DNA of 36,253 nucleotides from Folioceros fuciformis (GCA_049999805.1 JBNGIO010004591.1:1-36253); one strand, 5' to 3'. Counted from the first letter of the stretch, positions 9,544-36,253 are shown. Numbers and translations: made by a program. Notes: generated by a model not told the origin, from the letters alone.

Positions 9544-12500
9544 ATGCCTGCACGTCTAAGTCAATCCTCTGCTCCGAGTGCTGACATTCGGAATCCGAGG
9601 GACGTCGGTGGTCTAAGAAGGACTCCTGCTCATCTGCGTTCAGGGAACCAACGGGTGTCAATTAATGAAGCAACCATGTGCAGCAGCTTTGCAAGGAATC
9701 CAGCTGCGTGGGATGCTCCGCTCGTTGATGGGCATACGGAGACGTGTCACCGGCAAACAGGTGCTCGTTCGTCTACCTGGAGCGTGAGGGATGATGGTAA
9801 CGTTCGGGGGCCTGCAGGATACGGAAGTGGCGTGACGGCTGAAACAGTGAGCAACCTATGTCAGCAGGGGAAGCTTGGCAAGGCCGTTGAGGGTCTGGAA
9901 GCATTGGCGCATGGAGGGTGTCATATTTCGAAATCTCTTGTCTATGCTGTGCTGAAAAGGTGTGTAGCTGAGAAAGATCTGCTTTCAGGCAGGCGTGTTC
10001 ATGCTGTAACCGTGAAAAAGGGCTATGGGTCGGACACGTTCTTGTGCAACCACATCGTGCGGATGTATACTGCTCATGGCCAGTTGCAGGAAGCGATGGA
10101 TGTGTTCACCGTGGTTGCTAGACCAGACGCGTTCATGTGGTCATCGGTTATCTCTGCGCATGTTAAGCACGGAAAAGATGAGCGTGCCATACGATTGTAT
10201 CATGGAATGTGCAGGTCTGGTGTGAAGCCTGATGGGCACGTATTTGTAGCTGCCCTTCAGGCTTGTGCAAGGGGAACGGACCTGAAATCTGGGCAGCAGG
10301 TGCATGCTAATGTGTTGGCCAGTGGGGTTGAGCCTAATTTGTTTGTCTGTAATAGTTTGGTGGACATGTATGTTAAGTGTGGCAGCTTGGAAGAAGCTCG
10401 AAGAGTGTTCGACGGAGTTGGTAAAAAAGATGTGGTAACGTGGACTACAATGATGCAAGGATATTCTCAGCACGGCATGGGGGCCGAAGCCCTTCGTCTC
10501 TACGCTGTTATGCAAGAAGAAGGCACCGAGGCACCAAATTCCATGACATTTGTCTGCCTCCTGCAGGCTTGTGCAAGTGTCGGCGCCCCAGCTTTGGCGA
10601 TGGGGAAGCAACTTCATGCACAGATCAGAGAAAAAGGGTACGAAGCAGATGGATTTTTAGCCAGCAGCCTGGTAGACATGTACGCAAAGTGTGGCAGCCT
10701 AGAGGATGCTCGGACCGTGTTCGAGGGACTTGGGCAACGTAATGTGGTGATGTGGACCGCTATGATAGCTGGATATTCCCGGCAGGGCATGGGACAGGAA
10801 GCCCTCAATGTTTACAGGGCGATGCAAGAAGAGGGTATTGTAGCACCCAACACTGTGACGTTTTTGTGTCTTCTACAGGCATGTGCAAGTGTCGGCCCTC
10901 CAGCTTTGGAGAGCGGGAAACACCTTCATGCGCAGATTAAAGAGAGAGGTCTCCAAGGTGACGTATGTATGGCAAGCACTGTGGTGGACATGTATGCCAA
11001 GTGTGGCAGCCTAGAGGATGCTCGGAGTGTATTTGACAAGATTGGTCAAAAAAATGTGGTCACGTGGAGTGCGATGATAGCAGGATACTCGCAGCAGGGC
11101 CAGGGGCAGGAAGCCCTGGACCTTTTCAGGGCTATGCAAGAAGAAGGCTTTGTCGCACCGAATTATGTGACATTTGTGTGCCTGCTGCAGGCATGTGCAA
11201 GTGTGGGGACCTCGGCACTGGAGAAGGGCAAGCAGCTTCATGTACAAATTAGAGAGCGAGGGCTTCAGGGTGATGCGTTTGTAGCCAACACTTTAGTGCA
11301 CATGTACGCCAAGTGTGGCAGCTTGGAAGACGCCCATAGCTTGTTTGATCAGCTTGATGAAAAAGATGTGGTGACGTGGAATGCCATGTTAGCTGCGTAC
11401 TCCCACCGAGGCCTTGGCCATGAAGCTCTTTCTCTTTATAGTGATATGCAACAAGAAGGTTTGGCTGCACCTGATTCTTTGACATTTGTGTGCCTACTGC
11501 AGGCCTGTGGAAGTGTGGGCATCGTGGCTTTGGAGATGGGGAAGAAGCTCCATGAACAAATTCGAGATCGGGGGCTTCAAAGTGAAGTGTTTGTAGCCAA
11601 CGGTTTGGTAGACATGTATGCAAAGTGTGGCAGCTTGGAAGATGCTCTGAGGGTCTTTGATGGACTTGGTCAAAAAGATGTGGTGGCTTGGACGGCCCTA
11701 ATTTCAGGATTTTCTCAACAGGGTATGGGCCAGGAAGCGCTTCGACTGTACAATGCTATGCAAGAAGAAGGCATCTCTGTACGCAATCCAGTGACATTTG
11801 TGTGCCTCCTGCACGCATGTGCAAATGTGGCCGCGTTGCATACGGGAAGGCAGCTACATGCCCAGATTGAAGAACAAGGGCTTCAATCCGAGGTGCTTGT
11901 GGCCGGCAGTTTAATAAACATGTATGGGAAGTCCGGGAGCATGGTTGATGCACAGAATGTGTTTGACGGAATGACCGAGAGAGATGTTGCGACGTGGAGA
12001 GCACTGATCGCAGGCTATACCTGCCAGGGAGACAGTGATGTAGTCTTTGACTTGCTTCACAGAATGAGAGAGGATGGCATACAGCCAGACGGTATTACAT
12101 TCCTTAATGTGCTGAAAGCCAGCAGTCACGTAGGTCTACTGACAAAGGGGTGCAAGTTTTTTGAGGCCATGAGCAAACACTACGACGTTACTCCAACCGT
12201 GGAGCATTACACATGTATGGTTGATCTCCTGGGCCGTGCAGGCCAGCTGGATGAGGCTCTATGTTTGGTGAGGACAATGCCTGTACTGCCCAGCTCTATT
12301 ATTTGGCTCACTCTGTTGGGTGCTTGCCAAAAGTGGAGCAACCTGGAGATAGGAGGCCATGCTTTCCATGAAGCAGTTAAGCTGGACGAAAAAGATGCTG
12401 CATTGTATGTACTGATGGCTAACATATATACTAGTGCCGGCATGTGGGAGCAAGCACAAGGGATGCACTCGAAGAGGAAAGGAATCAGGGCATGGAAGCA

Positions 12501-12732
12501 GCCAGGGCAAAGCTGGTGGACAGGTATGGACGGACTTGTGCACAGTTTCTCAGTTGGAAAACGAAGAACCCCACGGGAAAGCAATTCTGAAACAAGTTCT
12601 TTGAAACAAGGAAAAGGGTATATGACATTAGACGGCCAGCAGAAACTTCCGACTGACCGGAAATTTTCACCGCACATAGGCGCGTTTCTGAACATTTACA
12701 GGCAAATCGACAATCGTGAAATCTCCCAGTGA
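9544..12732 (+). CDS. PLS-class PPR protein (about 8 PLS triplets, E1, E2, truncated WW-type DYW start), putative organellar RNA-editing specificity factor
   Basis: Intronless ORF; first in-frame ATG at 9544 (alternative 9676; the ORF track starts at a GTG). Repeating DVVTWxAMI / TFVCLLQAC / LVDMYAKCGSLEDA triplets with a 312-bp period; S2 VEHYTCMVDLLGRAG; E1 IWLTLLGAC; E2 YVLMANIY; KQPGQSWWT...VHSF; no HxE/CxxC motif. Confidence 0.95.
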   Translation: MPARLSQSSAPSADIRNPRDVGGLRRTPAHLRSGNQRVSINEATMCSSFARNPAAWDAPLVDGHTETCHRQTGARSSTWSVRDDGNVRGPAGYGSGVTAETVSNLCQQGKLGKAVEGLEALAHGGCHISKSLVYAVLKRCVAEKDLLSGRRVHAVTVKKGYGSDTFLCNHIVRMYTAHGQLQEAMDVFTVVARPDAFMWSSVISAHVKHGKDERAIRLYHGMCRSGVKPDGHVFVAALQACARGTDLKSGQQVHANVLASGVEPNLFVCNSLVDMYVKCGSLEEARRVFDGVGKKDVVTWTTMMQGYSQHGMGAEALRLYAVMQEEGTEAPNSMTFVCLLQACASVGAPALAMGKQLHAQIREKGYEADGFLASSLVDMYAKCGSLEDARTVFEGLGQRNVVMWTAMIAGYSRQGMGQEALNVYRAMQEEGIVAPNTVTFLCLLQACASVGPPALESGKHLHAQIKERGLQGDVCMASTVVDMYAKCGSLEDARSVFDKIGQKNVVTWSAMIAGYSQQGQGQEALDLFRAMQEEGFVAPNYVTFVCLLQACASVGTSALEKGKQLHVQIRERGLQGDAFVANTLVHMYAKCGSLEDAHSLFDQLDEKDVVTWNAMLAAYSHRGLGHEALSLYSDMQQEGLAAPDSLTFVCLLQACGSVGIVALEMGKKLHEQIRDRGLQSEVFVANGLVDMYAKCGSLEDALRVFDGLGQKDVVAWTALISGFSQQGMGQEALRLYNAMQEEGISVRNPVTFVCLLHACANVAALHTGRQLHAQIEEQGLQSEVLVAGSLINMYGKSGSMVDAQNVFDGMTERDVATWRALIAGYTCQGDSDVVFDLLHRMREDGIQPDGITFLNVLKASSHVGLLTKGCKFFEAMSKHYDVTPTVEHYTCMVDLLGRAGQLDEALCLVRTMPVLPSSIIWLTLLGACQKWSNLEIGGHAFHEAVKLDEKDAALYVLMANIYTSAGMWEQAQGMHSKRKGIRAWKQPGQSWWTGMDGLVHSFSVGKRRTPRESNSETSSLKQGKGYMTLDGQQKLPTDRKFSPHIGAFLNIYRQIDNREISQ

Positions 12733-16416: not shown

Positions 16417-18203
16417 GTCTATCTTGGCTTCAGATCAGAGCATGCCAAGTTGGCCACAGCAAATGCAAGAAGTTGGAGCAGAGGCAGAGCGTGGCAAGCT
16501 CGCTAGCTGATGAGCCGCATGCGAGCTCGGCCTGCCTCACGGTGAGGCTGGCCTTCGCTGGGTGGCCTGAAACCGATCCCGCTATCGCGCACCATAATAT
16601 TCGCTTTGGTGGGACAACGCTGACAAAACGTCTCACACGCACTACACTATAGAGTGTTGCCTTCTAAAACCGTCCTTGAACCCGATCCCGTTCGCGCTTC
16701 CGCCTCCCCTTTCCCTTCCTCTTGCTCTTCGTTATGTTCCTGGATCGCGTTAGTCCAAAACCGACGCGTTGGTTTCATTAAGTTATGTTTTAGTAGATCA
16801 GGAGTATGTTATATGTGCCTAGCAGCCTGTGGTGGGAAGATCGATTTTTTTCTTGCTGGGTTGCCTCACTAGGTATGTCCACAAGTAGTTATTGCTTTGG
16901 AGAAAAGAGGAAATTTTTTTGCATAACTAGTACACTTGGTGTACATAAGTGGTCTTGAGAATTGAGAAGTGTGTGCTTGGGAATAAGTATGGTCTTGAAT
17001 AAATATAAATTTTTATAAGAAATACATTATTACTGCGCTATCACTTGAAATGAGCTAATTGCCCAAAGCTTGAATTCAATGGTGCAACATTATTGGCAAT
17101 GACTATTTTTTCATCTTGTGTTGTTACTCGAAAACTTAAACTATAACCTTCTAGCGTTACATTCTTTTGCCAATTTTGTCCCCAATTGTGTGTTATGGGC
17201 AACCACTTGAATTGGAATGCTTCACCGACATAGCGGAGACTACTCTATTTTCACTTTATGTATTGCTAAGAGTTGTGTACATGTTTTTGTCAAAGCATGA
17301 GGTGGTGAGCTAGACAGCTCTACTAAGTATTATTTGCTTTCAGCATCTCGTCGGGTTGGATTCAGATGATGCAAACCAAGCGCTTATGTGCTGCTAGGGA
17401 ACATATACATGAGTGCAAGCAAGTGAGTAGCATAAGGAAAGAGAGTATGAGATAGGCAATAGGTAAACTCTTGGCTAGCAACAGCAACTGAGCATGAAAT
17501 CCACTTGTTTTCATTGCCATACTCACACTCATACCTATTCTCGCACTTGTTGTCATATTCACACTCATATCTATTCTCAAAACTAGTGGACTCATAGCCA
17601 CCGCATTGTTTTCACATTCACGCTCATACTTGGTCTCACACCTATTCTTACACTCACACTATTAGCATGCATAGTAACGGCAACATCTCAATCAGAATTA
17701 AGATTATAGCTCAAATTTGGTGAAAGCTTGGCTACGGTCATGTGATTTACCTAAGATTTAAGTAAAAACCCTTCCCTTCATAACTTGCAAATTGCGAGTA
17801 TGAAGAATTGAAGTCAAGTCAAGTAAGCAATATACTCCACATGGGTTATGGAATGAGATGATTTAGATTTCCGTAAGAAGCCCTTACCATTACTTCTCTT
17901 AATAACTTACAACTTACAAGCGCAAAGAAGTGTAGTGAGGTAAGATGAGCGATATGCCTAACATGGGTTATGGAATAAGACGGCATATGGTATGTAGAGT
18001 GGAATCCACCAAAAAAGGTTATCCCATAAGGCATTAAGCAAAGAAGAAATCTAGTCTAGCTTCCCCATATTGGGATGTAGTCCTACTATTTTTGCTCAAC
18101 TTTGAAGGATCTACATTAACTTTGGCTCGGGCTATAAACAACCAACCACTTGAGAAGGTCGTCTCTGGCTCGACTCTAGCTTAGGCTATAAAAGACCTAG
18201 CAC

Positions 18204-18490
18204 TTGAGAAGGTTATCATATAAGACGTCAAGGCAAGAAGTGAGAAGGTTGTTCTATATAACATTGAGGCAACAAGTGAGAAGGTTGTTCTATGTAACAT
18301 TAAGGCAAGAAGTGAGACGGTTGTTCTACATAACATTAAGGCAAGAAGTGAGACGGTTGTTCCATGTAGCATTAAGGCAAGAAGTGAGAAGGTTGTTCTG
18401 TGTAACATTAAGGCAAGAAGTGAGAAGGCTGTTCTATGTAACATTAAGGTAAGAAGTGAGAAGGTTATCCCACGTGACATCAAGGCAAGA
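18204..18490. repeat. Tandem repeat, 36-bp unit, about 8 copies, in TE-like DNA
   Basis: gtgagaaggttgttctatgtaacattaaggcaagaa variants at 18204, 18240, 18276, 18312, 18348, 18384, 18420 and 18456; a flanking block near 18130 recurs near 18580. Confidence 0.93.
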
Positions 18491-20608
18491 AGAGACCTAG
18501 ACTACCTCCCTCATACTTAAATATCATTTCATTCTTTGCTCATCTTTGCAATCTCTAGCTCTAGCTTCATCTCCATTTTGGGTTATAAACAACCAACCAC
18601 TTAAGAAGGTTGTCCCATGATATCAAGCCAAGAAGAGACCTAGCCTACCTCCTTCGTATTAGGATGTGGTACCATTTATTTTGTTCTAGTTTAAAGTGTG
18701 TTCTTAGGGTGTAGTGTAATTTTAAGAAGTTTTGCACTTATGGAGTAGTACATAATGTGATAAGGAACATAAGACTTTAAGTGAAAGAAGGTCTCTTGGA
18801 GAGTAGAAGGTCTCTTGAAGAGTAGTAGTCTAATACGAAATAAAAGACTTTTTAGTGCAAGGACCATGTTTCTCAAGAAGTAATAGTTTGATAAGGAACA
18901 AAGGAATCTTAGAGTGTTACTCAGCACCCCAAAGTAGAACTTCACCCCAAAGTAGAACTTTGATGAGGGAATTGTCTTGAGAAGTGTGTACATAATAAGG
19001 GAAGCGAGTATAATAATTATCGACAAGGAGTAACAAAAGACCTAGCTTATTATAGTTGTTTTGTAGCTCATTGATGTAGTACTTTGGAAATGAAACCAAG
19101 TTCAATATAAGAGGAAGACCAAAAATGAATGTGATAAGAATGAACAAATATTAAGCTAAGTTGCATAATTAGGTCCTTAATTTGGATTAGGTAGTCAACA
19201 CGTTTAATAAGAACTTTGCATTCTCCCTTATAAATGAATAACCAAAGACGTAAATACATACATGCTCAACATGACAAATGTTCAAACTTCGGGTTTAATA
19301 TCTCCTATATGTGCACCCACATTGCAAGTCTTGAAACATGGGCTAAGATTTCAAGTCCCTACATGTGCAAGGGCATATGAATTATTAGCATTGATTGTTA
19401 CATGCTTTAGCCATGTCGTATTAAATTCTTTCTTGAGAAGGTAAATAAGATACCTCATTACTCACATAGTTGTTATGGTATGGAAATGAAGACGATAATG
19501 GTTTGCTTCTTCAAAATCCCATTTAGACATCATAACCTAAGATCTTGATCACTTACAACATATATTTTTTGTCCTTAAAATGTATATAAAAACATCATAA
19601 TTTTCAAGCCCTTTTGTGTTATGTTTGGTTGAAGGCTAATGGTACAATGGTGGGTGTAAAGCTAACCTTTGTTCTTCTTACAAAATTAATAAATAGTTCA
19701 AGATACTTTACATTTATTGGTTTAATTTGCAAATTGTCCCGTAACATGTTGTTTCTCACGTCTTATTATTGAGCATCCAAACAAGTAATAAGAATTGTGC
19801 TATCTCCTCCTGCTTAGGAATTTGCATTTGAGACTTGCAAGCCCATGAACAAGGACTTGTTGAGGTTAACCAAAGAGTGTGCAAAAATCTGTCCCAAATA
19901 CAGAACAAACGGATCTCCCTCCTTCCCGTATATTGGCTTTCTTTGGGCAATGGTTTGGGTAGCTTTGCAGAAAGCGCTGGCTAATGCAGTTTAGAGGTCA
20001 GTTAGGTTACGAATGCCCCATGAACCCGTGGCTTCTTGAGCACCCGCGCGAACTATGGATTTCTTGATTAGGGGCAGGTAGGCCCTTTTATCATCTCTAA
20101 TTGCTATATCACTGGTGCAGTCATTGGTGCTCTTCCTGGCTCGTGGGTAAATGAGATTTCCCTCGTTTCTTTTAATAAAGTGCATTTTTCCATTCGAGTC
20201 CCTAGATTTGTCTAGGGTTAAAATTAACAGTCGCTTGAATTTGTGGCCCAGCAGCATAAGGTGTGAAAAGGGCAAGTGCAAAAAGCGGGGAGTACATGTA
20301 GTAACGACGAAAGGGAGCCAGTTTGAAATACACTCCATACATAGGTGCAGGACGCTAAACAGGCTTGTAGGCTTGTCCGTGTGGAAGGTGCCGTCTTACC
20401 GCGATAAGGGTAGTATGTCGGACCCCATGGAAGGCCTTGGTCCCGACTCCCTCTCCCTTCTCTGCCGCTTTCTTTGTTCTTGCCGGGTAGTCTGGGCGTC
20501 AGCCTAGTGCCGCAGATTGGCAGGCATTTGCGGGGTTTGGTTGCAGCAGGTTCCAGAGGGCTCCAGACTTCGTGCAGGCCAGGCGTAGGTTCCAGTATCA
20601 GCAGCAGT

Positions 20609-23113: not shown

Positions 23114-26100
23114 TTAGTCACTCCCCCATCTTCGCTTCCTCGCCGGTCTCTCTTGGTTCACTTCGACAGTCTGCGTCTGATCGCTATTATTTTCGCTCTG
23201 TAGCTTTCTCGACTCGGAAAATTTTCTGCGCAACCGTTCCTTTCGGTCCTCCGCCGCCGAGTGCTCCTGTTTCTTCTCAACATGAGCACTCTCGGAGGTG
23301 TCGACTCCTTTTTTCGGAAGGACATCCAATGCGCCGGGATTATGATCCGACCACTCCCTACCCCTTGTTTCAGATGCTTGTCGGCCAGTTACGTTACTCT
23401 CTTGCACTTTGCCGACTACCTTCTTTCTGGCCCTCGCACTAACATTAACCAATTGGTGCCTCGTCTTGCCTGAGCTGCTAGCTTCACCCACCTGTTCACA
23501 CAAATCACCTCGGTCAACCTCTGTGGCAAGGCAACCTCACACCATCCGTTAGAAGTGCTAGTTTTCAGAAGCTGCGTTACCTTGTCTTCCCTAGTCACCA
23601 ACTCCAGGTCATTTAGGCTTTTCTTACGAAGCTCTTGACCCCTACGCCGGCCTCGACCTCTGAGACCGTTCACTTGGTAGTCATCCACAACACTATTAAC
23701 AGCCTGCACAGGCAGGGTCAGGGAAATTCAACATGAAGATACAATTTCAGGTCTTCCATGATCTATTATCACGACAGGCACAACACGCTGCCATCCCTCT
23801 CAAGACACTACCTTTTCTGTGGCAACAGCAGAATGCAGGGAATCATTTTTTCTCTTCCTGCGGGTATCCACATTGAAATCCTCCAAAGATTCAACACCAA
23901 CTGCCTTATCATCTGCCTTTCTGCCTGAGATCCTTATCCCTTTATCCTCCTTTGATGGCCTTGTATCTGTGCTCCTATAGTGATCAGCAGACTCTCGTGT
24001 TGACTCCCGAATGGACTCCCGCCCTGATTCCTGTACAGAGTCTCGTGCCACGTCTCTCCCCGACTCACGTGCTGCTTTTCGGCTTGCCTCCCGGACTGAT
24101 TCTCTCCCTGAGTCTCGTGCCACTTCTCGCCCTGACTCTTGGGCTGCTTCCCTTAAAGATTCTCGTCCCAACTCCCTCGTTGATTCTCTCCCCAGATCTC
24201 GTGCGGAATCTCGTCCTGACTCTCGTGCAGAGTCTCGGCCAGACTCTCTTCCAGCCTTCCGCCCGGACTCTCTTGCCATTTCTCGCCCAGATTCTCTTAC
24301 AGTTTCTCGACCAGACTCACGTAGAGTTTCTCGCAATGAGTCCCTCGCCGAGTCCCGCCCCGACTCTCTAACAGAGTCCCGCCCCGACTCTCTTGCAGAT
24401 TCCCGCCCNNNNNNNNNNNNNNNNNNNNNNNNNNNNNNNNNNNNNNNNNNNNNNNNNNNNNNNNNNNNNNNNNNNNNNNNNNNNNNNNNNNNNNNNNNNN
24501 NNNNNNNNCCCGCCCCGACTCCCTAGCAGATTCTCGCACCGACTCTCTTGCGAAATCCCGCCCCGACTCTCTTGCAGATTCCCGCCCGGACTCTCGTGCA
24601 GATTCCCGCCCGGAAAGACCTCCAGGCTGAGCAGTCCTGTCATCGTTCCTCCGGGAGGGATATCTCGAGTGCATATAATGCTCTCTTTCAGAACCTCTGG
24701 TCCATCCATTTCTGTGTTTAGAGTAAGCTTGATCATCAGACTCTGGGCCCTCTTTACCACGAGAATCATCCCTGCGTGACGCAGACCTTCCACTTTCCCT
24801 TCCTCTACCCCGTTCAGACATGGACGTAGGCACGTCATGGGGCGTATCTTTCTTTTGGCTCCAATAGGACCTTTCCCCATTTTCCTGGGTGCCTTTCACG
24901 TCGTCTGACCTTCTCTGAGTCGATTCAGATTTGGATCTGTATGAACTGTCAAGGTCTCGTCTTTGACTGTAAGAACTTCCTTCTTGCTTCTCTCTCCTGG
25001 ACTGTAATTCAGATTTCCTTTCCCTTTCTTCTCTCTGCCTTGAGTTGCCACCCCTTGCCTCCAGCCTTCCATCGTCCACTTTCCTCATCTCAACACTTCG
25101 CTCCCGCTTGTCCTGTCTATATTCCTTCTTTGTATGAACCTGCGATTCATGCTTACTGGCTTCAAATGGCAACGCAGCATCGCTACCTGAGCTTTCATCA
25201 CGAGCATCGTACAGGTCATTAGAAAGCTCTAAACTGCACCCTGAATCCTCCTGGCTTGCACTGTTCTTCCTGCTGCTCGCCTTCGGGCCGTACTCCCTTC
25301 CAGATCTTGTCGACTTATCTGACAGCTCATGAGTTTTCTGCCGCTTAGGATACTGAACAGGCTCATCGACATCTTGCTCCTCCAGATCATTTGCCTCATC
25401 CCCTAAGCCTTGGGACGGTTTATGCTCTTGCTCACCAGAGTTCTCGTCTTCTTCATGGTACCCAACTTTACACAACTTGGAGCGGATTGCTCCACTGTCT
25501 CTATCGTCAAAATCATCTGACTCCCATGGTCTGCTGCTTTCTGAGTCTTTAACAGTTCCGAGTACACCCCTTGGTCCCCATCCACCTGACCCAACATTGC
25601 TTGGCTCATCATCCCCCATCGGCATGTGTCCCGGTTGTTTAAGGTGCCCTGGCTGTGGGGAAGGAAATAGGGGAGGTGGCCCTCGCCTGCAAGTTAAGAA
25701 CAGCTGCTAGTTATATACTCAAGACTCTAAGAGGACTTTCAATCCATTCATGACATCGAACTCAAAACCAACACCTGGCCTAGCTAACTTCTCTTGGTGG
25801 CGGACTTCACCTTGGAGGTTCAATAAAATCTGGATGGCGAAGACCGAAGGCATCTTGACGAGGCCCTTGCCCTAAGAGGGGGCCGGGCCTTGGCCCTCCA
25901 TAAGGAGCCCGCCTTCCTGATACACCTCTGCATACATACTCATAAAGCGAAGAATTGTTATCTTGCTCAGTGACATTGAGCCCACACAATTAACATAATT
26001 GAAGGGGACAGCATACCGGCCGAGTGGAGGAAGACAAAACTGTTCGCCTGGAAGCACCCCATAACCTGGTGTTGGACCTTGATGTGGCCCAATCATGCCA

Positions 26101-28865: not shown

Positions 28866-29800
28866 GAGGCCCGGAACGCACCCACAGAATGCAAGCAACG
28901 ACAACAAGAATCCCACACACCCCGATCGTCCTGCTAAACCTGCCTGCTTCTGCACCTCCTCCTCCTTCCTTGCCTCCCTCCCGCCCTCCCTCCTTTCCTC
29001 ACTTGCTCCCTGGCTCGCTGCCTCCCATCTTCTCCTTCCCCCTTTCCCTGCTCCCCCCTTTTCCTGCTCCTTTCCTTCGCTACGCACCCTAAACCCGCAT
29101 ACACGTTGTAGGTATCTGGTGCGTGCTTTTTATTGGGTTCGAACGGGATAGTCCCTCAACCCATCAAAATCATGAAACAAGGGGTGACGCCAACTCTTCA
29201 GATTCGCAACAAAACATTGGTCATATTAATCTTTCGGCGGATTACCTACATATATAGATGGGAAAAAAACCCGACTGGGGATAATAGGAAATCAAACTTT
29301 TACTAGTTAGGTGAGTTGGTGTATACACTTAAGGAGCATTAAAACCTTAGCTAATATATATAATATAATATAATAATTAAGATATATTGAAGAAAAGCAA
29401 ATCTAATATTACTCACATGGTGAAAGTTTTTTAAATAACTTGTGTCAAAGCTTAGTAATTGTGTTGTATGACAATGAATTATTCAAGATAGTTGATACGT
29501 TCATTGACACGATATCTTTTCTAATGAAAGCCCTCTTATTTATTTTAGAAAAATAAGATCTAGCCTATGGAGGAATAAACCATGATAGGAACACTAAGGG
29601 CTAACTCCCTCAAGCCTAATGAGTACCGATAGTACCTAAATCAACATGGTTTGGGAGAAGTACAAGTGGGGTATTTTCTATGATTGAAAAAGAGATGGAA
29701 AGTCCCATCTACTCCAAAGATTGGAGGAACAACCCCATTAGGGCCAAAGGCAAAAAAGAGGTACTCTCTCCCTACAAATATCATTTTAAAAAACTACGCT

Positions 29801-29931
29801 CCCAAAATGTCGTGATGTGGAAGAACCATGTCTACTTACCAATTCCCAAAAGATCATGATGTGGAATAATAATGTCTACTTACCAATTCCCAAAATGTCA
29901 TGATGAGGAATAACAATGTCTACTTATCAAT
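29801..29931. repeat. Tandem repeat, 44-bp unit x3
   Basis: cccaaaa.gtc.tgatg.ggaa.aa..atgtctactta.caat at 29801, 29845 and 29889. Confidence 0.88.
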
Positions 29932-30029
29932 GTAATCTCTCTTACCGATGTTGTTGTTATGCATATGGCATTAGCCAACACTGCACAAGCCGGACAAGAC
30001 CCTTCCTAAGTTTTCACCCTCTGCCTGGA

Positions 30030-33000
30030 AACTTGGATTCTAAACATCCTTCTCAAGATTTGTGGCTCCTTGACAGTGGAGCAACAAAGCACATCCAGTA
30101 TACCTCTTTGCCTGCTCCTCAACTTGTCTACATGGGAGATAGCTCTCCACAAATGGCTGTTGGTACGGGAGTGGTAAAAGTGTAGCTTCAAAATCATGTA
30201 GTCTTCATAAAAGACGTCCTGCACGTTCTTGCACTGACACACAACTTGATGTCAGTTATGCAAGCTACTAGATCTCCAAACAGCAAGATTACCTTCACAC
30301 ATAAAGGTTGTCAGATCTCCTTTAGACTCTCCTCTGGGCAGTTAGTGCAATTATTTTATCCTCAAAGTGGCAAGTTGTTTTATGTGGCTTCAGGCATCCT
30401 ACCCGAGTCACTACGTTCAACAACCACCACACACAGTTTAGTAGCTACAGATGCTACAACTACTTTCTGGCACTTACGCTTAGCCCACTTACATCTGCAG
30501 GGCATGTAGCGGATGTCCACAAAAGGTCTGGTTTTAGGGTTACCTCCTAAGTTAGGAGCTTTACCTCTATGTCCCGGCTGTGTCGTAGGCAAGCACGCCA
30601 GCCAGCCTTATCCAAGATCCCATACCAAAACATCCCATGTCCTTGAGTTGGTACATGCTGACCTTTGTGGACCGATGCAGACAGCAACTTTGTTAGGCAA
30701 ATTATACATGTTTGTCTTGCTAGATGATTTCAGTCACTGGACAAACACAAACCTCAAACACTTCCTCAAACACAAACCCGAGGCATTTCTGTGTTTCAAG
30801 ATGTTCCAAGCTTATGCAGAGAACCACATTGGATAGAAGATCAAGATTTTTCCTAAGGACAATGTGGGAGAACTTACCACACCAATTTTTGAGGGACATC
30901 TCCTCTCACACGGGATCCAACACCAAAAGATAGTCCCATATTCACACTAACAATTGGGAACGGCTGAGTGCCGCCATCGCTCCATTATGGACGGTGTTCG
31001 CAGCTCTCTGCACACTGCTGGCCTCCCAAATTATTTGTGGGCAGAGGCTGCTGCTTGCGTTTGCTATGTTCAAAATCGTTGTGGCACTTCCACAGTTGAA
31101 GACAAGACACCTTATGAAATCTGGAAGGAGCAGAAACCGAACGTCAGCCATCTTAGGATTTTTGGCTGCACTGCCTACAAATATGTTCCCCCAGAAATTC
31201 GCAAGAAATTGGACCCTCGTTCCATCCCACTTACCTTTGTCGGATATGGAGAAGAGATTGGTGTGAAAGGTTACCGGCTCTACAATCGCCACAACCGTAG
31301 TTTTTCGTTGGCCAGGAATGTCATCTTTGATGAAGCTTCTATTCTGAACGCTCCTCCTCGAGATCCTTCGCCAGCAGCCAACGCGATGACACCACTCCTT
31401 CCTGTTACCACCTATGCGGACAACGTCTTTCAACCACCTCCCATTCCGGTGCCACTTCCCCACCCAACAATCCCTAACTTACCAGCCGCTCCTTTACCAC
31501 CCCTTCCTAGAGCTTTCCCTCCCGATCCTTACAACACGCACTGGCTTTACCACAAAGATCCTGCTCAGCCACAGGGGGGAATAGGATCAGATCCTGACGT
31601 TGCTGAGCATGATGGATTTCAAGGACCAGATCCTGATGTTGCTGAGCCTGATGGACTTCCATCTTCTAACAACACAACACGACGCTCTACCAGGTCCAAC
31701 AGAGGGATTCCAAGTGTAAAATTTCATGATCTCTCCTTTGACAAATCCCAAGGCCTTTCTGCACATGCTCTCTTTAGTGCTGACATTGTTCCTGTTAAAA
31801 AAGCACTAGAAGGATCCGAATCCAACTCTTGGAAACAGGCAATGGACAGTGAATATCAATCCTTGGTTTCTAACAACATCTGGACCTTGGTTGATCCACC
31901 GAAAGGTAGAAACATCGTGGGCAGCAAATGGGTCTTGAGAAAGAAGCACAACGCAGATGGCTCTCTAGCTAGGTTCAAGGCCAAACTCGTAGCAAGAAGA
32001 TTCACACAAAAGAGTGGAGTCAACTACTCTGAATCCAGTATCTTCAGCGCGGTAGTTAAACTCACCTCTCTTCGTGTGATGATAGACCTAGCTGCTCTAT
32101 ATGGTCTCGCTATACATCAGCTAGATGTGGAGACCGCGTTTTTTCATGGGATTTTAAAAGAAGAAATCTACGTTCAACGGCCTCCTGGATATGAAGTAAA
32201 AGGCCAAGAGTCCAAGGCGTGCCTTCTTCAGAAAACACTATATGGACTGAAGCAATCTCTGAGAGGCTGGTACGAGCGTCTACTTCGATATTTACTCAGC
32301 CTGGGTTATGTTAAAAGTATTGTGGACTCTAGAGTCTTCACAAGAAATAGGGGGCAACAGATGCTTATGATGGGTCTCTATGTAGATGACCTTATCATGG
32401 TTTCAAATGATGAAAAGTATTTAGCAGAGTGCAAATTTGCTCTTCAGAAAGAGTTCAAAATGACTAATAATGGGAGTACGTCATATTCTCTTGGTATTCA
32501 GGGCGTTCAGAATTCGTCTAATCATACTATCACTTTGCATCAGGGTACGTATGTTTCTAACTTACTGACCAAGTATGAAATGTCTAGCTGCAAACCTGTA
32601 GACACACCCATGCAAACAAGCCCAAGACTAAGTAAGACTATGTCACCTCAAGTAGATGATGAAGCTACTGAGATGCAATCAGTTCCGTATGCAAGCGTAG
32701 TAGGCAGTGTTCAGCATTTAGCTCAATACACTAGATTAGATATAGCGTGTCCTAATGGCCACGTTTCTCAATTCCTGCCAAATCCTGGAAAGTTACATTG
32801 GGTAGCAGCTAAAAGAATCCTTAGATATCTTCAATGAACGAGAACCAGTGGAATTCAGTACAAAGGAGGTCCTGATGCTGCAACCAAGCTTATAGGTTGA
32901 ACTGATGCAGACTATGCAGGCGACCCAAACTCTAGAAAATCCACAAGTGGTTACATGTTCATGCTTGCAGGGGGGCCTGTGAGCTGGAAGTCGAAGAAAC

Positions 33001-33578
33001 AAACCTTGATTGCACAGAGTTCAGCTAAATATGAATATATTGCTGCTGCCTCAGCCGTCAAGGAAGGACTATGGATCGTTTAGCTACTTCGAGACCTTGG
33101 TTACCCACAAGAAGGCCCTTTGGAATTAATGTGTGATAATACAGCTACCATTGCTCTCTCAAAAGATGTGAGGTTTCATGAGCAATCAAAACACATAGAA
33201 GTAAGATATCATTTCCTCCGTCTCAAGGTGGACTTAGGAGCGCTAGTGTTGACGTACGTATCCACTGAAGACCAACTAGCCGACATTCTCACCAAGCCTT
33301 TGGGGAAGATTAAACATGAGACCTTCAGTTCAAGATTGGGACTCGTTGATTTGTGATACACTGCTGTTTTAGATCATTTTGCTTCAAGGGGGGTGTGTGA
33401 AACTGGTTATGTTTTACCTGAAGTTCGTTTCTCCTTTTGTTTAGGGACGCTATATGAACAGACGTGACTCTTCGTTCTGCTCTTGTATAATGCCTTTGCA
33501 GGCTCATAATAAAAAAAAACATACGACTCGTTGTTCTTCTGTGCGTGTCGTGTGTCTGGTCTAAATCGCTTTGGTTCA
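30030..33578 (+). mobile_element. Ty1/copia LTR retrotransposon, 5'-truncated (no 5' LTR or gag seen), inactivated pol (PR-IN-RT-RH)
   Basis: One frame with in-frame stops: protease WLLDSGATKHI; WHLRLAHL...CPGCVVGK; integrase LELVHADLCGPM; RT IVGSKWVLRKK, LYGLKQS, LYVDDL; RNase H DADYAGD, CDNTATI, SKHIEVRYHF, DQLADILTKPL; pol ends at 33356. The 5' boundary is approximate. Confidence 0.95.
33386..33578 (+). repeat. Polypurine tract and probable 3' LTR (about 180 bp)
   Basis: aagggggg PPT at 33386-33393, then TG(TG)AA; TATA-like tatatgaa near 33451; aataaa/A-run near 33508; ends ...ttca at 33578. No second LTR copy in the window confirms the ends. Confidence 0.65.
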
Positions 33579-33579
33579 T

Positions 33580-34062
33580 GTTGAGGATGAGATTTTGAAG
33601 CCCATCGCTGATTGGGAGTATCTGGCAAACAAGCCTAAGGTGGTTATCGTAAATGCCTGTCGAGGCACTGGCAACCTTGTTGCAAAGAAGCAAGCGGAGG
33701 GGCCAAGCACCGGCAACCTTGCCTCTAGCAGCAAGGAGAAGGGGTTAGACGTTGAGGGAAGCCAGGTTGTCAGCCAGAGAAGTCAACTCCTGTCTTCTGT
33801 GACCGACTGTCTTACCGTCTTCTCCACCAGTCCTGGAGTTGAATCTTTGAGAAATGTCAAGGAAGGCACACACTTTATCATAGCTTTGATGGAAGCCATC
33901 AATCGGGGCTCTCAAACAGAAGATGTGTTGAGCATTCTAACACGCGTGATTGGCAAGGTCACGGACATGAAGGGCCAGCGTAAACCCGAAGCAGGATACA
34001 AGGAGGTATTCCAGTGTCCCGAGCTGCACAGCACACTTCGGAAAAAGAAATACGGGTCTTAG
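33580..34062 (+). pseudogene. C-terminal part of a caspase-like (C14A-type p20 end, linker, p10) protease gene, N-terminus missing at the LTR junction
   Basis: VEDEILKPIADWEYLANKPKVVIVNACRG (Cys codon 33658-33660) fits L.GKPK.FI.QACRG; DCLTVFSTSPGVESLRNVKEGTHFIIAL...EDVLSILTRV...QCPELHSTLRK fits the p10 pattern. No ATG or catalytic His before the Cys; in-frame TAA at 33562. Confidence 0.75.
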
Positions 34063-34828
34063 CCACACCATGCTCTTCTCATGCCTGGCTTGCGTGAGTA
34101 GCGTGTGGCCAGGGCCTGTTATGCCTTCAATCAAGTGTCAGGTATCGTCTTCAGTTACGCACTGTTTGTTGGTGCATCAAACTGCCTCGGATACGATCTT
34201 CTCGATTCTCCCTTTCTACGCATCAACTAGTTCCTGTTTGGCAAGGGAGACGTCTCATAGCGTCCTGATGTGGATGAACAGATGCTGACTTGTGGAGGCT
34301 ATGGGTAGGAAGGGAAGAACATGCGTGTTTGTACACACGGTCAGCTGCAGCTCTTGGTTTCAAGAGACAAGTCGAGATTTGCGGTCCTCTGGCTCCAGGT
34401 TTGCGGTCTTGTGGTTTTTACATCTTTTGTACACTGTCAGGATGTATTATCCATCTTCCCGACCAGCCACAGCTGGGACAGGATGTCCCTCCCTGAAATC
34501 GCGTCTGGAGCTCCTAGGAGCCTTCATGTCACAGTGACATTAGGCAGAACGGAGCAGTAGTTCACTGCTTGTGATAACTGGACTACGTTTGCCAGCACAG
34601 TATTGCTCTAGCTCATGCACAGCATAGCAGGCAAGTAGCAAGTATAGGAGTATATCACGATGAAAACAGGTACACTAGCCCGAATAACACTGTGGCATCT
34701 TCATCCTGTCTCCTGGTTTCGAGCATGTCCTTGTCTCATTCTTCTATGAAACTCGGATTCTCTTTCCGTTACAAAGTTGGCACTCTGAATGCAGGTAGTG
34801 CCCTCTGAGGAGGAGCTGGTAGCGCCTG

Positions 34829-34958
34829 CCTGCCGCTACTGTGGGTTTGCAAGTCCGGTTACCCTCGGCACTCGCGCTTTGTTCCCTTCCCTGCCGCTAC
34901 TGTGGGTTTGCAAGTCCGGTTACCCTCGGCACTCGCGCTTTGTTCCCTTCCCTGCCGC
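34829..34958. repeat. Perfect 61-bp tandem duplication (2 copies plus 8 nt)
   Basis: cctgccgctactgtgggtttgcaagtccggttaccctcggcactcgcgctttgttcccttc at 34829 and 34890. Confidence 0.95.
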
Positions 34959-35385
34959 AGCTGCTAGGATGTCGTGTGTTTGGTTAGAGTGGCCGCCGGG
35001 AGTTTTGGGGATGCTGGGTTTGAGCTGCAGCGGTGTTTTGCAATACACCTAGGCTTATGTTTGTCTTTCCTGCCCTTACAACTTCCAAGCCAGCAAGCTT
35101 CAACGGGGTGTAGGACATAGTGTTTAGCTTTCAAGACGGGTGCTTGAACCTACAGCTGTACGTAGCTCAAAGTTTGAAGGGTGCAGCCCGTGCTTCTGAG
35201 ATGCCTGCTGTTTCCTCGTGTGCCTGGGTAGGATGGATTTGTGGGTGATCTAAGGTACAGCGATGTGAAGAGCTTCCTCTTGACTGCGGCGTCAGGGTTA
35301 GCAGCTGTGCTTTGTGATGAGATGCAGGGTTCGAGCTGCTGACCCTGATATGGTATTGTATTTGTATGAAGAAAACCATCTCCAG

Positions 35386-35424
35386 AACATTAATGGTAAA
35401 CACCTTGGGCTTGTTTGCCAGGTA
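35386..35424 (-). pseudogene. Small inverted fragment homologous to the caspase-like gene
   Basis: YLANKPKVFTINV; 31/39 nt identical to 33619-33657. Confidence 0.6.
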
Positions 35425-35571
35425 TGTAACTGTATTCATTGAAGGGTTCCATCACGGGACGCAGTAATGCGGCAGACAAGCCAAAAGTGTGTTATCACCA
35501 ACGGTAGATAACAATTATTAGATAGGTAATGAAATCCAACATCCAAATGGCCGGGGGCTTGCTCGGTGGAT

Positions 35572-36253
35572 CTACCATTTGATGAATTCGAAGCGAGGAG
35601 CCGATTTGGTCGGGGCTTGATCGCGATCGAAACTACCTTCCTGGCCCAGGTCTCCTATGAGCTGGTCCACCATGTCGAAGGTGACGTGGTCCATGGCGAA
35701 GATGCGGCTCAGCTCCCGCCCCTCTTCATCCTCGTGGTTGGACAAGGAGTACTTGTCCACCAGCTCGTCCCTGGGCCTCTTGAACAGCACGGAGAGCGAC
35801 ATGGGCGTGTGGTACACAAACAGGTCGGTTCGAAGCTCGGACTCCAGTCGCCGGAGTGTCTGCTCCATGTAGTCCGCCACTGCCAGGTTGCGCAGGGCCT
35901 TCTGGGTGAGGCTTGTGAAGGAGTTGCTGGCGATGGAGTTCCACAGCAGCAGCGGCGACAGGCCGCTCCGGGAGCCGGCAAACGTGGTGTCGGGAGTGCC
36001 GATGTATTCGGGGGTGTCCGGAGGCTGCAGCTGGTACTTGGTCCTGGTCATGTAGATCCCGGTGGGCACAGGCGAGCCGACCCACTTGTGTCCGCTGGTG
36101 GAGATGGAGTTGACAAAGTCGTTGCGAAAGTCGAAACTGGGCCCTTTGTTGCCGGTCAAGCCTGCCTGGTGCGCCATCTCAACGAAGGGCATGTAGGCCG
36201 CCCCTAGCGCGCCGTCGACATGGAACCAGAAGCCGCGGCGGTTGATGACGCAG
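35572..36253 (-). CDS. Group II PLP-dependent amino-acid decarboxylase (histidine-decarboxylase-like), 3' part; continues beyond the window
   Basis: Open frame from the window end: CVINRRGFWFHVDGALGAAYMPFVEMA...FDFR...SISTSGHKWVGSPVPTGIYMT...YIGTPDTTFAGSRSG; HVDGA and SGHK (PLP Lys) motifs; TAG at 35574-35572; no intron in the visible part. Confidence 0.9.
   Translation of the reverse strand, partial: CVINRRGFWFHVDGALGAAYMPFVEMAHQAGLTGNKGPSFDFRNDFVNSISTSGHKWVGSPVPTGIYMTRTKYQLQPPDTPEYIGTPDTTFAGSRSGLSPLLLWNSIASNSFTSLTQKALRNLAVADYMEQTLRRLESELRTDLFVYHTPMSLSVLFKRPRDELVDKYSLSNHEDEEGRELSRIFAMDHVTFDMVDQLIGDLGQEGSFDRDQAPTKSAPRFEFIKW

What the first reader, a model, noticed from the sequence alone, without database searches (positions are those of the whole stretch)
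33580..34062. True-caspase-like (p20/p10, NACRG) protease sequence in a land-plant genome
Seen: KPKVVIVNACRG, a roughly 45-aa low-complexity linker (TGNL twice; GLDVEG as a possible processing site), then a p10-like block (D.L.VFST.PG..SLR...GT.FI..L...DVLSILTRV...Q.P...STLRK). Established: land plants encode metacaspases (D-x-C-H-S-G, Arg/Lys-specific) and are held to lack C14A caspases, whose hallmarks include KPK..IQACxG and the p10 S-W-R arginine of the Asp-binding S1 pocket. That Arg appears retained here (SLR), while Gln is replaced by Asn. Inference: this lineage may carry an unrecognised caspase-like protease family, possibly in cell death or immunity and possibly horizontally acquired. 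This copy lacks the catalytic His region, so any functional members would lie elsewhere in the genome.
Basis: partly seen in the sequence, partly recalled or inferred. Interest (0 to 1): 0.88.

Follow-up and report, generated by a model that had tools for sequence, protein, structure and literature searches.

The report
Truncated caspase-like gene copy in a bryophyte-type plant
This is a broken, half-length copy of a gene from a small, apparently undescribed family of animal-caspase-like proteases found in liverworts and hornworts, which matters because plants are generally said to have no caspases.

Summary
Window 33565-34062 (+) is an open 165-codon frame that matches Pfam Peptidase_C14 (E 8.5e-18), but only profile positions 102-233. 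It holds the Cys loop KPKVVIVNACRG, a 45-residue linker and a p10-like part with the SLR arginine.

It is a 5'-truncated, probably dead copy. The His-bearing half is nowhere in the window. There is no start codon upstream of the Cys. Homology ends at about 33578, against the 3' end of a degenerate copia element. Paralogue contigs from the same organism read on in frame across that point.

The copy is not contamination. It lies in gap-free sequence between plant genes. It belongs to a supported clade with Marchantia, Riccia and Nothoceros proteins, apart from the animal caspases sampled (tree unrooted).

Family members keep the His-Cys dyad and both S1 arginines, with Asn in place of the caspase Gln. 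By sequence profile, predicted fold and predicted dimer they resemble caspases more than paracaspases or metacaspases.

UniProt auto-names some members "Caspase family p20 domain-containing protein". Ten literature searches found no paper describing the family, and abstracts from 2025-2026 still say plants lack caspases.

Biochemical specificity, biological role and evolutionary origin remain untested.

The parts
33565..34062 (+). Stop-to-stop open frame of 165 codons plus stop. Homology to the caspase-like family runs from about 33578 to 34053. No ATG lies upstream of the Cys codon (first Met is residue 109).
33631..33666 (+). Active-site loop KPKVVIVNACRG. The catalytic Cys codon is 33658-33660, and Asn takes the place of the caspase Gln.
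   Evidence: (aligned to KPKLFIIQACRG of caspase-3)
33667..33801 (+). Linker of 45 residues between the Cys loop and the p10-like part (TGNL twice, GLDVEG). Its length and sequence vary among relatives.
33802..34059 (+). p10-like part: DCLTVFST..SLR (Arg codon 33850-33852, aligned to the S1 Arg of the caspase SWR), GTHF, QCPELHSTLRKKKY.
33394..33577 (.). Junction segment between the copia polypurine tract (AAGGGGGG, about 33386-33393, read by eye) and the truncation point. Inferred remnant of the 3' LTR. Other genomic copies begin at 33394 or diverge after 33408 and 33514.
   Evidence: loose ends; X1 record 2 bridges 33082-33645; two searches found no matching 5' LTR
29907..33356 (+). Degenerate Ty1/copia-type pol region, broken into several frames.
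   Evidence: frames; RVT_2 2.9e-64 and SH3_retrovirus 2.2e-24 on 30951-32837, the only part scanned
35388..35424 (-). Inverted 37-nt remnant, 84% complementary to 33619-33655, reading YLANKPKVFTIN. It has no Cys motif after it and a frame break before it. It overlaps the end of the decarboxylase mRNA contig.
   Evidence: E 0.048; E 0.13
34139..34278 (+). Stretch skipped with GT..AG ends (the tool gives the cut as +3) in an RNA-like contig downstream of the frame. The adjoining piece 34279-34736 matches the window exactly, which suggests low-level spliced transcription on the + strand.
   Evidence: table 5; record 21

Best explanation
Window 33565-34062 is the 3' half of a caspase-like (Peptidase_C14, caspase-type) gene. 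It keeps the active-site Cys loop, the inter-subunit linker and the p10-like part. The 5' half, with the catalytic His and the first S1 arginine, has been lost. The break is at about 33578, where the homology abuts the 3' end of a degenerate copia retrotransposon. I infer that a copia insertion into the coding exon, followed by deletion or rearrangement, removed the upstream half. With no His, no start codon and no upstream exon, this copy cannot make a protease, so it is a gene relic, perhaps weakly transcribed. It derives from a real plant family seen in liverworts, a hornwort and this organism. Complete members have the caspase fold, a His-Cys dyad (xAHG ... NACRG), both arginines of the caspase S1 pocket, a variable linker and a predicted caspase-like beta6/alpha5 homodimer interface. 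My inference is that intact members are dimeric cysteine proteases that cut after acidic residues (Asp or Glu). They would be regulated through differing N-terminal domains (two alpha/beta-hydrolase domains in Marchantia, an unknown domain in P0002 and P0151, none in P0103) and possibly by linker cleavage. Shown: homology, truncation, genomic context, family membership, residue conservation, predicted fold. Inferred: how the truncation arose, substrate specificity, dimer activation, biological role.
For: Truncation:
- Pfam covers only profile positions 102-233 of 233. The family HMM covers only positions 114-263 of 272, and no other frame in the window scores better than E 0.13.
- tblastn with P0001, P0002, P0004 and P0005 finds only this segment.
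- The in-frame codons just upstream hold a stop and no family similarity.
- In one search a 1240-nt RNA-like contig (X3 record 17, 38 other letters and 8 gap letters over 33580-34115) carries different letters upstream of 33578. By my hand translation these give ten further sense codons in the same frame, resembling the family's D-x-x-G-x-K segment. A DNA contig shows 8 letters of nearly the same continuation (one differs). So 33578 is a breakpoint rather than an exon edge.

Plant context:
- Copia pol lies directly upstream (RVT_2 2.9e-64), with PPR/E-motif, starch synthase and PLP-decarboxylase genes in the window.
- The only N runs are at 4094-4193 and 24409-24508.
- X1 record 2 bridges 33082-33645.
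- GC3 is 0.57, within the 0.50-0.84 of the five neighbouring host genes.

Family:
- The best of 190 hits is a Nothoceros transcript at 41% identity.
- A 24-row clade holds the window, 5 named bryophyte proteins and 18 unnamed ones, against 48 others (SH-aLRT 96). FastTree gave a 13-row clade with support 96.
- Marchantia members lie on a 28 Mb record and Riccia members on 56 Mb records.

Caspase-likeness:
- The family profile against PDB gives caspase-6, -3, -7 and -8 at about 1e-36, and all 60 rows shown are caspases.
- The AF2 model of P0103 has pLDDT 92.1. All Foldseek rows shown are caspases.
- VIA Z-scores: caspase-9 28.9, caspase-3 28.5, MALT1 22.7, AtMC4 18.8, AtMC9 17.9, Yca1 14.9.
- The nearest Atlas clusters are animal caspases at 0.96-0.97.

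Residues:
- His in 19 of 20 clade rows that cover it.
- Cys in 23 of 24.
- First S1 Arg in 18 of 19.
- p10 Arg in 17 of 18.

Homodimer:
- Score 0.66, best of 3 controls 0.00.
- The mark was reached by 21 of 30 proteins solved as pairs of one chain and 0 of 23 solved as single chains. On eukaryotes it was reached by 17 of 29, but by only 1 of the 7 with no older solved relative.
- Runs agree in at least 77% of contacts, and partner pLDDT is at least 75.
- The interface uses residues 250-258 and 224-238, the last strand and last helix.
Against: - The frame is fully open over 165 codons and aligns without frameshift to relatives. That would also fit a still-used terminal exon.
- RNA-like contigs identical to the window exist just downstream (34279-34736) with a GT..AG joint, so the locus may be transcribed.
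- No LTR pair or target-site duplication was found, so the insertion-plus-deletion history is inferred only.
- I could not search the whole genome, so upstream exons more than 33 kb away cannot be formally excluded.
- The paralogue contig that shows the upstream continuation lacks one base at 33874 relative to the window, so that paralogue may itself be broken.
- The homodimer pass may come from the model's memory of solved caspase dimers.
- The tree is unrooted and holds no metacaspase, paracaspase or bacterial outgroup.
- Gln-to-Asn in the pentapeptide is a departure from canonical caspases, and its effect on specificity is unknown.
- Two clade members lack key residues (P0151 has no Cys; P0195 has no His or p10 Arg), so not all members are enzymes.
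- X3 is RNA only by the tool's guess.
Confidence: 0.85

Rival explanations
1. The segment is the intact last exon of a working gene whose His-encoding exons lie upstream, separated by a copia element sitting in an intron.
For: The frame is open for 165 codons with no frameshift against relatives. A pyrimidine-rich tract and an AG precede 33588. Window-identical spliced RNA-like contigs lie just downstream.
Against: No His half was found in the 33.5 kb upstream by tblastn or by the family HMM. The space upstream of copia is taken by the 5' end of a FIP1-like gene on the other strand. Paralogue RNA-like and DNA contigs read straight through the point in frame, so the family has no intron there. 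There is no ATG before the Cys.
Confidence: 0.07
2. The fragment was never disrupted in place. It is a partial gene copy moved or duplicated together with transposon sequence, one of many dispersed fragments.
For: Many contigs at 90-99% identity pile up on the conserved parts. In X1, 53 of 71 laid contigs are under 99% alike, and summed depth is 192 in bin 33576-33697 against about 11 in flanking bins. A second tiny inverted remnant lies 1.7 kb away. No 5' half lies beside the copia's other end.
Against: Summed contig depth is not copy number, by the tool's own caution, and the 71 contigs also include copia copies. The junction contig has single-copy-like depth of 12. No terminal repeats of a capturing element were seen. 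This rival differs from the best explanation only in history, not in what the element is now.
Confidence: 0.25
3. It is animal or other non-plant DNA wrongly joined to a plant contig, or contamination.
For: Outside the plant clade, the nearest named relatives are animal caspases.
Against: The sequence is gap-free from the FIP1-like gene through copia and the fragment to the decarboxylase gene. DNA-run contigs cover the junction and flanks. The decarboxylase is strongly represented in the same organism's RNA-like run. GC3 is in the host range. The fragment sits in a clade with proteins from chromosome-scale liverwort assemblies and a hornwort transcriptome, apart from the animal sequences.
Confidence: 0.02
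4. It is a divergent metacaspase, paracaspase or orthocaspase (basic-P1 type) that only superficially resembles caspases.
For: Pfam Peptidase_C14 covers all these groups. The pentapeptide is NACRG rather than QACRG. MALT1 scores Z 22.7.
Against: All 60 PDB rows shown for the family profile are caspases, at about 1e-36. Identity to caspases is 21-27%, against 13-16% to metacaspases and MALT1, and Z is 24-29 against 12-19 for metacaspases. Both S1 positions hold Arg, not the acidic residues of basic-P1 enzymes (the acidic-pocket rule is recalled knowledge). None of the 30 hits I looked up is named metacaspase. No NCBIfam or PADLOC bacterial family matches the caspase domain.
Confidence: 0.03

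Closest known systems
Animal caspases (MEROPS C14A), especially effector caspases-3/-6/-7 and caspase-8/-9
   Same: Full-length alignment of the family profile at E about 1e-36. Same predicted fold (Z 24-29, rmsd 2.1-2.9 over 196-227 residues). His-Cys dyad, KPK...ACRG loop, both S1 arginines, a linker between large and small parts, the C-terminal Q.P...S.L.KK motif, and a predicted beta6/alpha5 homodimer.
   Different: Asn replaces Gln in the pentapeptide in 21 of 24 clade rows. The clade lies on one side of a supported branch, with all sampled animal caspases on the other (unrooted). No CARD or DED was found by Pfam; instead there are alpha/beta-hydrolase domains, or unknown or absent N-terminal regions. 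The hosts are plants. Activity is untested. The window copy lacks the whole His half.
Marchantia polymorpha MARPO_0108s0037, Mp_6g00860 and Mp_6g00900; Riccia fluitans R1flu_002472; Riccia sorocarpa R1sor_005734; Nothoceros aenigmaticus transcripts
   Same: They share the clade with the window fragment and the NACRG/NSCRx signature and p10 Arg. They are plant-encoded.
   Different: The closest relatives (a Nothoceros transcript, P0002) are only 41-44% identical to the window fragment. [quoted passage not shown] UniProt already auto-names them 'Caspase family p20 domain-containing protein', and one NCBI record says 'protein SERAC1'.
Caspase-like proteins reported outside animals (Reticulomyxa, some viruses; Klim et al. 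2018, PMC5982838, passages read)
   Same: They set a precedent for caspase-type rather than metacaspase-type C14 proteins in non-animal eukaryotes.
   Different: The host lineages differ. That paper's text has no occurrence of Marchantia or Physcomitrella. I did not compare those sequences with this family.
Plant metacaspases (C14B; AtMC4, AtMC9) and the paracaspase MALT1
   Same: Same superfamily and Pfam family, with a His-Cys dyad.
   Different: Fold scores and identity are lower (Z 17.9-18.8 at 13-15% for metacaspases; Z 22.7 at 15% for MALT1). The family has Arg at both S1 positions, and it is predicted to dimerise through the last strand. That metacaspases are monomeric and basic-P1-specific is recalled knowledge, not tested here.

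Membership tests
Caspase (MEROPS C14A) | Caspase-hemoglobinase fold with the large part, linker and small part in one chain | tested here: met
   Tested on family member P0103, not on the window fragment. AF2 pLDDT 92.1. Z 28.9 to caspase-9, 28.5 to caspase-3, 27.8 to caspase-8. All Foldseek rows shown are caspases. The window holds only the Cys loop, linker and small part.
Caspase (MEROPS C14A) | Catalytic His-Cys dyad | tested here: not met
   In the window copy the Cys is present (33658-33660) and the His region is absent. In the family it is met: His in 19 of 20 and Cys in 23 of 24 clade rows covering the position.
Caspase (MEROPS C14A) | QACxG pentapeptide | tested here: not met
   The window has NACRG. 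21 of 24 clade rows have Asn at the Gln position and none has Gln. The five animal reference rows all have QACRG.
Caspase (MEROPS C14A) | S1 pocket arginines (equivalents of caspase-1 Arg179 and Arg341; numbering recalled) | tested here: met
   The p10 Arg is present in the window (SLR, 33850-33852), aligned to the caspase-3 SWR. In the family the first Arg is in 18 of 19 rows and the p10 Arg in 17 of 18, and both align to caspase-6 ERRGT and SHR. The first Arg lies in the part missing from the window.
Caspase (MEROPS C14A) | Cleavage after Asp | not testable with these tools
   Needs enzyme assays.
Caspase (MEROPS C14A) | Homodimer through the last beta strand | tested here: inconclusive
   For two copies of P0103 the score is 0.66 and the best of 3 controls is 0.00. 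The interface uses residues 250-258 and 224-238. Runs agree in at least 77% of contacts and pLDDT is at least 75. The pass may come from memory of solved caspase dimers.
Caspase (MEROPS C14A) | Closer in sequence to caspases than to other C14 groups | tested here: met
   All 60 PDB rows shown are caspases, at 1.5e-36 to 1.5e-33. Of the 30 hits looked up, 10 are animal caspase-type proteins, 4 are bryophyte, 16 are unnamed and none is named metacaspase. Atlas scores are 0.96-0.97 to caspase clusters.
Caspase (MEROPS C14A) | Orthology to a metazoan caspase subfamily | tested here: not met
   The clade lies on one side of a branch with SH-aLRT 96, and all sampled animal caspases lie on the other. 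The tree is unrooted and has no outgroup.
Metacaspase (MEROPS C14B) | Best profile and fold match to metacaspases, with an acidic S1 pocket | tested here: not met
   Metacaspases score Z 12.0-18.8 at 13-16% identity, below caspases, and none is among the 60 PDB rows shown. Arg sits at both S1 positions.
Ty1/copia LTR retrotransposon (the neighbour) | RVT_2 reverse transcriptase and integrase-side domains | tested here: met
   RVT_2 2.9e-64 and SH3_retrovirus 2.2e-24 on 30951-32837.
Ty1/copia LTR retrotransposon (the neighbour) | Pair of LTRs | tested here: not met
   No direct repeat links 28.9-30.3 kb to 33.36-33.6 kb.

The most novel reading that the evidence does not exclude
Bryophytes carry a working clade of true caspase-type proteases. 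These would be dimeric, cut after acidic residues and carry a signature NACRG site. In liverworts they are fused to alpha/beta-hydrolase domains. They would act as executioners or signal processors in immune or developmental cell death. If so, caspase-type enzymes either predate animals and were lost in seed plants, or were transferred between kingdoms.
Probability: 0.25. Interest if true: 0.9.

Novelty: new variant of a known kind. Interest (0 to 1): 0.7.

Why it matters
Plant cell-death research rests on the statement that plants have metacaspases but no caspases. The abstracts of a 2025 Nature Communications paper (PMC12521494) and a 2026 review (PMC13272413) still say so; I saw both only in search listings.

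Here a window of a plant genome points to a family that is caspase-type by sequence profile, predicted fold, catalytic residues and S1-pocket residues. The family sits in chromosome-scale liverwort assemblies and hornwort transcripts, and is transcribed in this organism.

Marchantia is a transformable model plant. The questions [quoted passage not shown] therefore become directly testable by knock-outs and enzyme assays.

The window copy itself is of little functional interest. It is a relic showing that the family turns over by transposon-associated decay.

Tried and rejected
- **Whole-genome search.** No genome is held for this window, so full-length paralogues could not be located.
- **Longer relatives of the fragment.** The search for homologous proteins with lengths 'longer' gave none at E <= 0.001 among 723 candidates. 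The tool calls this weak evidence, and later searches did find longer relatives.
- **Word-index searches.** A search with P0002 gave only P0151. A search with alignment A1 gave 17 proteins. Both are word-index limited, so the family's range is a lower bound.
- **Prokaryote genomes.** The pattern scan matched 16 stretches and none was a relative. It used one narrow peptide pattern, so this is weak evidence against a bacterial donor.
- **Metagenome contigs.** 24 loci encode a relative, the eleven with longer matches at 25-33% identity and the rest matching only the short Cys-loop region. They were not used further.
- **RNA support.** No RNA holder is on record. X3 is RNA only by the tool's guess. 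I treat it as RNA-like because of its GT..AG joints and very uneven depth.
- **LTR pair and target-site duplication.** Not found.
- **N-terminal 175 residues of P0002.** No Pfam family, no Atlas hit, and AF2 pLDDT mostly under 50 there. The fold is unresolved.
- **Bacterial families.** NCBIfam and PADLOC gave nothing for the caspase domains.
- **Earlier scan notes.** Three look-ups returned nothing.
- **Literature.** Ten searches found no paper on bryophyte caspase-type genes. The six Marchantia gene identifiers occur in none of the texts searched. Subscription journals and supplementary files were not searchable.
- **Acceptor site.** I considered the AG at 33586-33587 as a splice acceptor. 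I rejected it because paralogue DNA and RNA-like contigs continue in frame upstream of 33578.
- **Origin of unnamed clade members.** The 18 unnamed members (Logan, JGI, ENA) could not be assigned to organisms.

Full report
**1. The observation**

The window has a stop-to-stop open frame at 33565-34062 on the + strand, 165 codons long.
- KPKVVIVNACRG;
- a 45-residue linker with TGNL twice and GLDVEG;
- a p10-like block with DCLTVFSTSPGVESLR, GTHF, and QCPELHSTLRKKKY at the end.

The match is statistically solid:
- Pfam Peptidase_C14 scores E 8.5e-18, but covers only profile positions 102-233 of 233.
- A single-sequence search of PDB chains returns caspase-3 and an ancestral effector caspase (6e-8 and weaker). 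KPKVVIVNACRG aligns to KPKLFIIQACRG, and SLR aligns to SWR/SYR.

**2. Anatomy of the locus**

The His-bearing half is absent from the whole window. tblastn with four longer relatives and an HMM of the family run over all six frames find only this frame (E 1.1e-50, HMM positions 114-263 of 272). The one other signal is a 37-nt inverted remnant at 35388-35424, which reads YLANKPKVFTIN (E 0.13).

Other features of the frame and its surroundings:
- The frame has no ATG before the Cys, and a stop lies three codons upstream of where homology begins.
- Directly upstream lies a degenerate Ty1/copia pol region (RVT_2 2.9e-64), split over several frames.
- That region ends in a polypurine tract near 33386-33393, read by eye. 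I found no LTR pair.
- The rest of the window is plainly plant: a P-class and a PLS/E-motif PPR gene, a starch synthase exon and a PLP-decarboxylase.
- A FIP1-like gene lies on the minus strand, recognised by eye from the frames.
- The only N runs are at 4094-4193 and 24409-24508, so the stretch from 24.5 kb to the window's end is gap-free.
- GC3 of the fragment is 0.57. The five host genes measured range from 0.50 to 0.84, and copia is 0.40.

**3. Evidence from sequencing runs**

Three coded runs of one coded organism hold the stretch. Laid on 32600-36253, they show the following.

- A DNA contig (X1 record 2, depth 12) bridges 33082-33645, from copia across the junction into the fragment.
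- Several flanking contigs match the window with no differences.
- Run X3 behaves like RNA: it has GT..AG joints, depth 700 on the decarboxylase, and depth 0 in the first eight bins (32600-33575), which cover the copia part. The tool labels it RNA only as a guess.
- X3 holds a 1240-nt contig that matches 33580-34115 with 38 other letters and 8 gap letters, so it comes from a paralogue.
- Upstream of 33578 that contig carries different letters. By my hand translation they continue the same frame for ten sense codons and resemble the family's conserved D-x-x-G-x-K segment.
- A DNA contig shows 8 letters of nearly the same continuation (one differs).
- The family therefore has no intron at this point, and 33578 is a breakpoint.
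- That paralogue lacks one base at 33874 relative to the window, so it may itself be frameshifted.
- Other short RNA-like contigs of higher depth (121-171) do not show this deletion.
- Many contigs at 90-99% identity stack on the conserved parts. This indicates several paralogues, though summed depth is not a copy number.
- Downstream, a contig identical to the window (34279-34736) and a joint 34138 to 34279 with GT..AG ends suggest weak spliced + strand transcription of the locus.

**4. The family**

A full HMMER scan of 1.84 billion representatives gave 190 hits at E <= 0.001, 6 at E <= 1e-10, and none above 44% identity among the top ten.

I looked up 30 of the 150 listed hits:

| Origin | Count | Examples |
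|---|---|---|
| Bryophyte | 4 | two Nothoceros aenigmaticus transcripts; a Marchantia polymorpha cluster of 9 sequences including Mp_6g00860 and Mp_6g00900 on a 28 Mb record; Riccia fluitans |
| Animal caspase-type | 10 | insects, molluscs, turtles |
| Unnamed | 16 | Logan, JGI, ENA |

A further search added Riccia sorocarpa and more unnamed sequences.

Two trees support a distinct clade:
- FastTree on 152 rows gave a 13-row clade holding the window, with support 96.
- IQ-TREE (quick, LG+C20) on 72 rows gave a 24-row clade holding the window, the 5 named bryophyte proteins and 18 unnamed ones, against 48 others, with SH-aLRT 96.

Both trees are unrooted and contain no metacaspase outgroup. For the second tree I chose 72 of the 199 proteins then held.

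Domain architecture varies. The Marchantia 807-residue proteins carry an Abhydrolase_6 match on residues 23-228 and a second region (342-575) matching PADLOC DUF626_VIII, ahead of a C-terminal Peptidase_C14 domain. P0002 and P0151 have an unassigned N-terminal region of about 175 residues. P0103 is the protease domain alone.

**5. Caspase type or metacaspase type?**

- **Profile against PDB.** The family profile (alignment A1, 12 rows) matches caspase-6, -3, -7 and -8 over nearly its whole length at 1.5e-36 to 1.5e-33. All 60 rows shown are caspases.
- **Predicted fold.** The AF2 model of P0103 is confident (pLDDT 92.1, pTM 0.91). All Foldseek rows shown are caspases, with target-normalised TM 0.74-0.83.
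- **Search of 48,161 representative chains**:

| Structure | Z | Identity |
|---|---|---|
| Caspase-9 | 28.9 | 26% |
| Caspase-3 | 28.5 | 27% |
| Caspase-8 | 27.8 | 27% |
| Sf-caspase-1 | 24.8 | 26% |
| CED-3 | 23.9 | 21% |
| Caspase-4 | 23.8 | 22% |
| MALT1 (paracaspase) | 22.7 | 15% |
| AtMC4 (metacaspase) | 18.8 | 15% |
| AtMC9 (metacaspase) | 17.9 | 13% |
| Yca1 (metacaspase) | 14.9 | 16% |
| TbMCA2 (metacaspase) | 12.0 | 14% |

- **Language-model features.** The nearest clusters are animal caspases at 0.96-0.97.
- **Residues in the clade**:

| Position | Present in |
|---|---|
| His | 19 of 20 rows covering it |
| Cys | 23 of 24 |
| First S1 Arg | 18 of 19 |
| p10 Arg | 17 of 18 |
| Asn at the caspase Gln position | 21 of 24 |

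P0151 lacks the Cys. P0195 lacks the His and the p10 Arg.

- **Homodimer prediction for P0103**. The score is 0.66 and the best of 3 controls is 0.00. The mark was reached by 21 of 30 proteins solved as pairs of one chain and 0 of 23 solved as single chains. On eukaryotes it was reached by 17 of 29, but by only 1 of the 7 with no older solved relative. Runs agree in at least 77% of contacts, and pLDDT is at least 75. The symmetric interface uses the last strand (250-258) and the preceding helix, as in caspase dimers. The pass may reflect memory of solved caspases, so it shows likeness only.

**6. How it most likely works**

The window copy cannot be an enzyme. It is a relic, most simply explained by a copia insertion into the coding exon followed by loss of the upstream half. 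This history is inferred; no target-site duplication or partner breakpoint was seen.

Intact family members are predicted to be dimeric His-Cys proteases. They would have a basic S1 pocket and therefore prefer acidic P1 residues. The shorter Asn in place of Gln might shift or widen this preference, which is speculation.

Regulation by N-terminal domains and by linker cleavage is inferred from analogy with caspases. The linker is not conserved, so GLDVEG as a processing site has no support.

**7. Comparison with what is known, and novelty**

Abstracts seen in search listings still state that plants lack caspases or genuine orthologues: PMC12521494 (2025), PMC13272413 (2026), PMC10896300 (2023) and PMC5756287 (2017).

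Klim et al. 2018 (PMC5982838, passages read) reported caspase-type proteins in Reticulomyxa and in viruses, and argued for an early split of caspases from metacaspases. Marchantia and Physcomitrella do not occur in that text.

Other checks also found nothing on this family:
- The Marchantia gene identifiers occur in no searchable paper.
- A Marchantia HGT preprint does not mention caspases.
- The NLR survey PMC11218826 mentions the word caspase only within the term caspase recruitment domain (CARD).

UniProt's automatic name "Caspase family p20 domain-containing protein" shows that databases flag the domain. The sequences are therefore public, but as far as my ten searches reach they are undescribed. 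Subscription journals and supplements were not searchable.

**8. Verdict**

The local feature is a dead fragment. The family it reveals is a caspase-type variant in bryophytes. Its activity, role and origin are open and experimentally tractable.

Noticed in passing
P0039 (Marchantia polymorpha, 807 aa), residues 342-575: The second alpha/beta-hydrolase-like region of the Marchantia caspase-domain protein matches the PADLOC candidate defence family DUF626_VIII (E 2.7e-14). One NCBI record names the protein 'SERAC1'. Liverwort NLRs with hydrolase N-termini trigger cell death in Nicotiana (PMC11218826, passages read). I did not test whether these hydrolase domains are related.
   Followed up: partly
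P0151 and P0195 (unnamed clade members): P0151 has VISGHG where the others have NACRG, so it has no Cys. P0195 has AYG for AHG and lacks the p10 Arg. These are likely pseudo-proteases within the family.
   Followed up: partly
window 35405-36253 (-): The 3' part of a PLP-dependent decarboxylase gene (Pyridoxal_deC 7.9e-06) is covered without differences by a 2015-nt RNA-like contig of depth 700, the highest in the laid region. Its 3' end overlaps the inverted caspase-like remnant.
   Followed up: partly
window 34829-34950 and 29800-29931: An exact 61-nt tandem duplication lies downstream of the fragment. A 44-nt unit is repeated three times (86-89% alike) just before the first copia frame.
   Followed up: no
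window 34912-35505: A 1926-nt RNA-like contig from a roughly 93%-alike paralogous locus matches 34912-35295 and 35421-35505, skipping 125 nt with GT..AG ends. The flank of the fragment is therefore also repeated elsewhere and transcribed.
   Followed up: no
window 4094-4193 and 24409-24508: Two runs of exactly 100 N (scaffold gaps). The second lies inside the FIP1-like gene's repetitive Arg/Ser/Glu-rich exon.
   Followed up: no
window 9514-12732 (+) and 7015-9231 (-): Two intronless PPR genes lie head to head. One is PLS-class with an E motif (PF20431, 2.4e-11) but no DYW match listed. The other is P-class.
   Followed up: no
window 18181-18520: Open frames on both strands made of a degenerate short peptide repeat (LLALMLHRTTFS-like). 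This suggests a tandem minisatellite in an AT-rich intergenic stretch.
   Followed up: no
P0035, P0037 and other ENA/JGI/Logan hits outside the plant clade: Several unnamed environmental proteins also carry NACRG rather than QACRG (18 of the 151 proteins held have NACRG, NACQG or NSCRG). They fall outside the bryophyte clade on long branches. Caspase-type proteins with Asn may therefore be wider among uncultured eukaryotes.
   Followed up: partly
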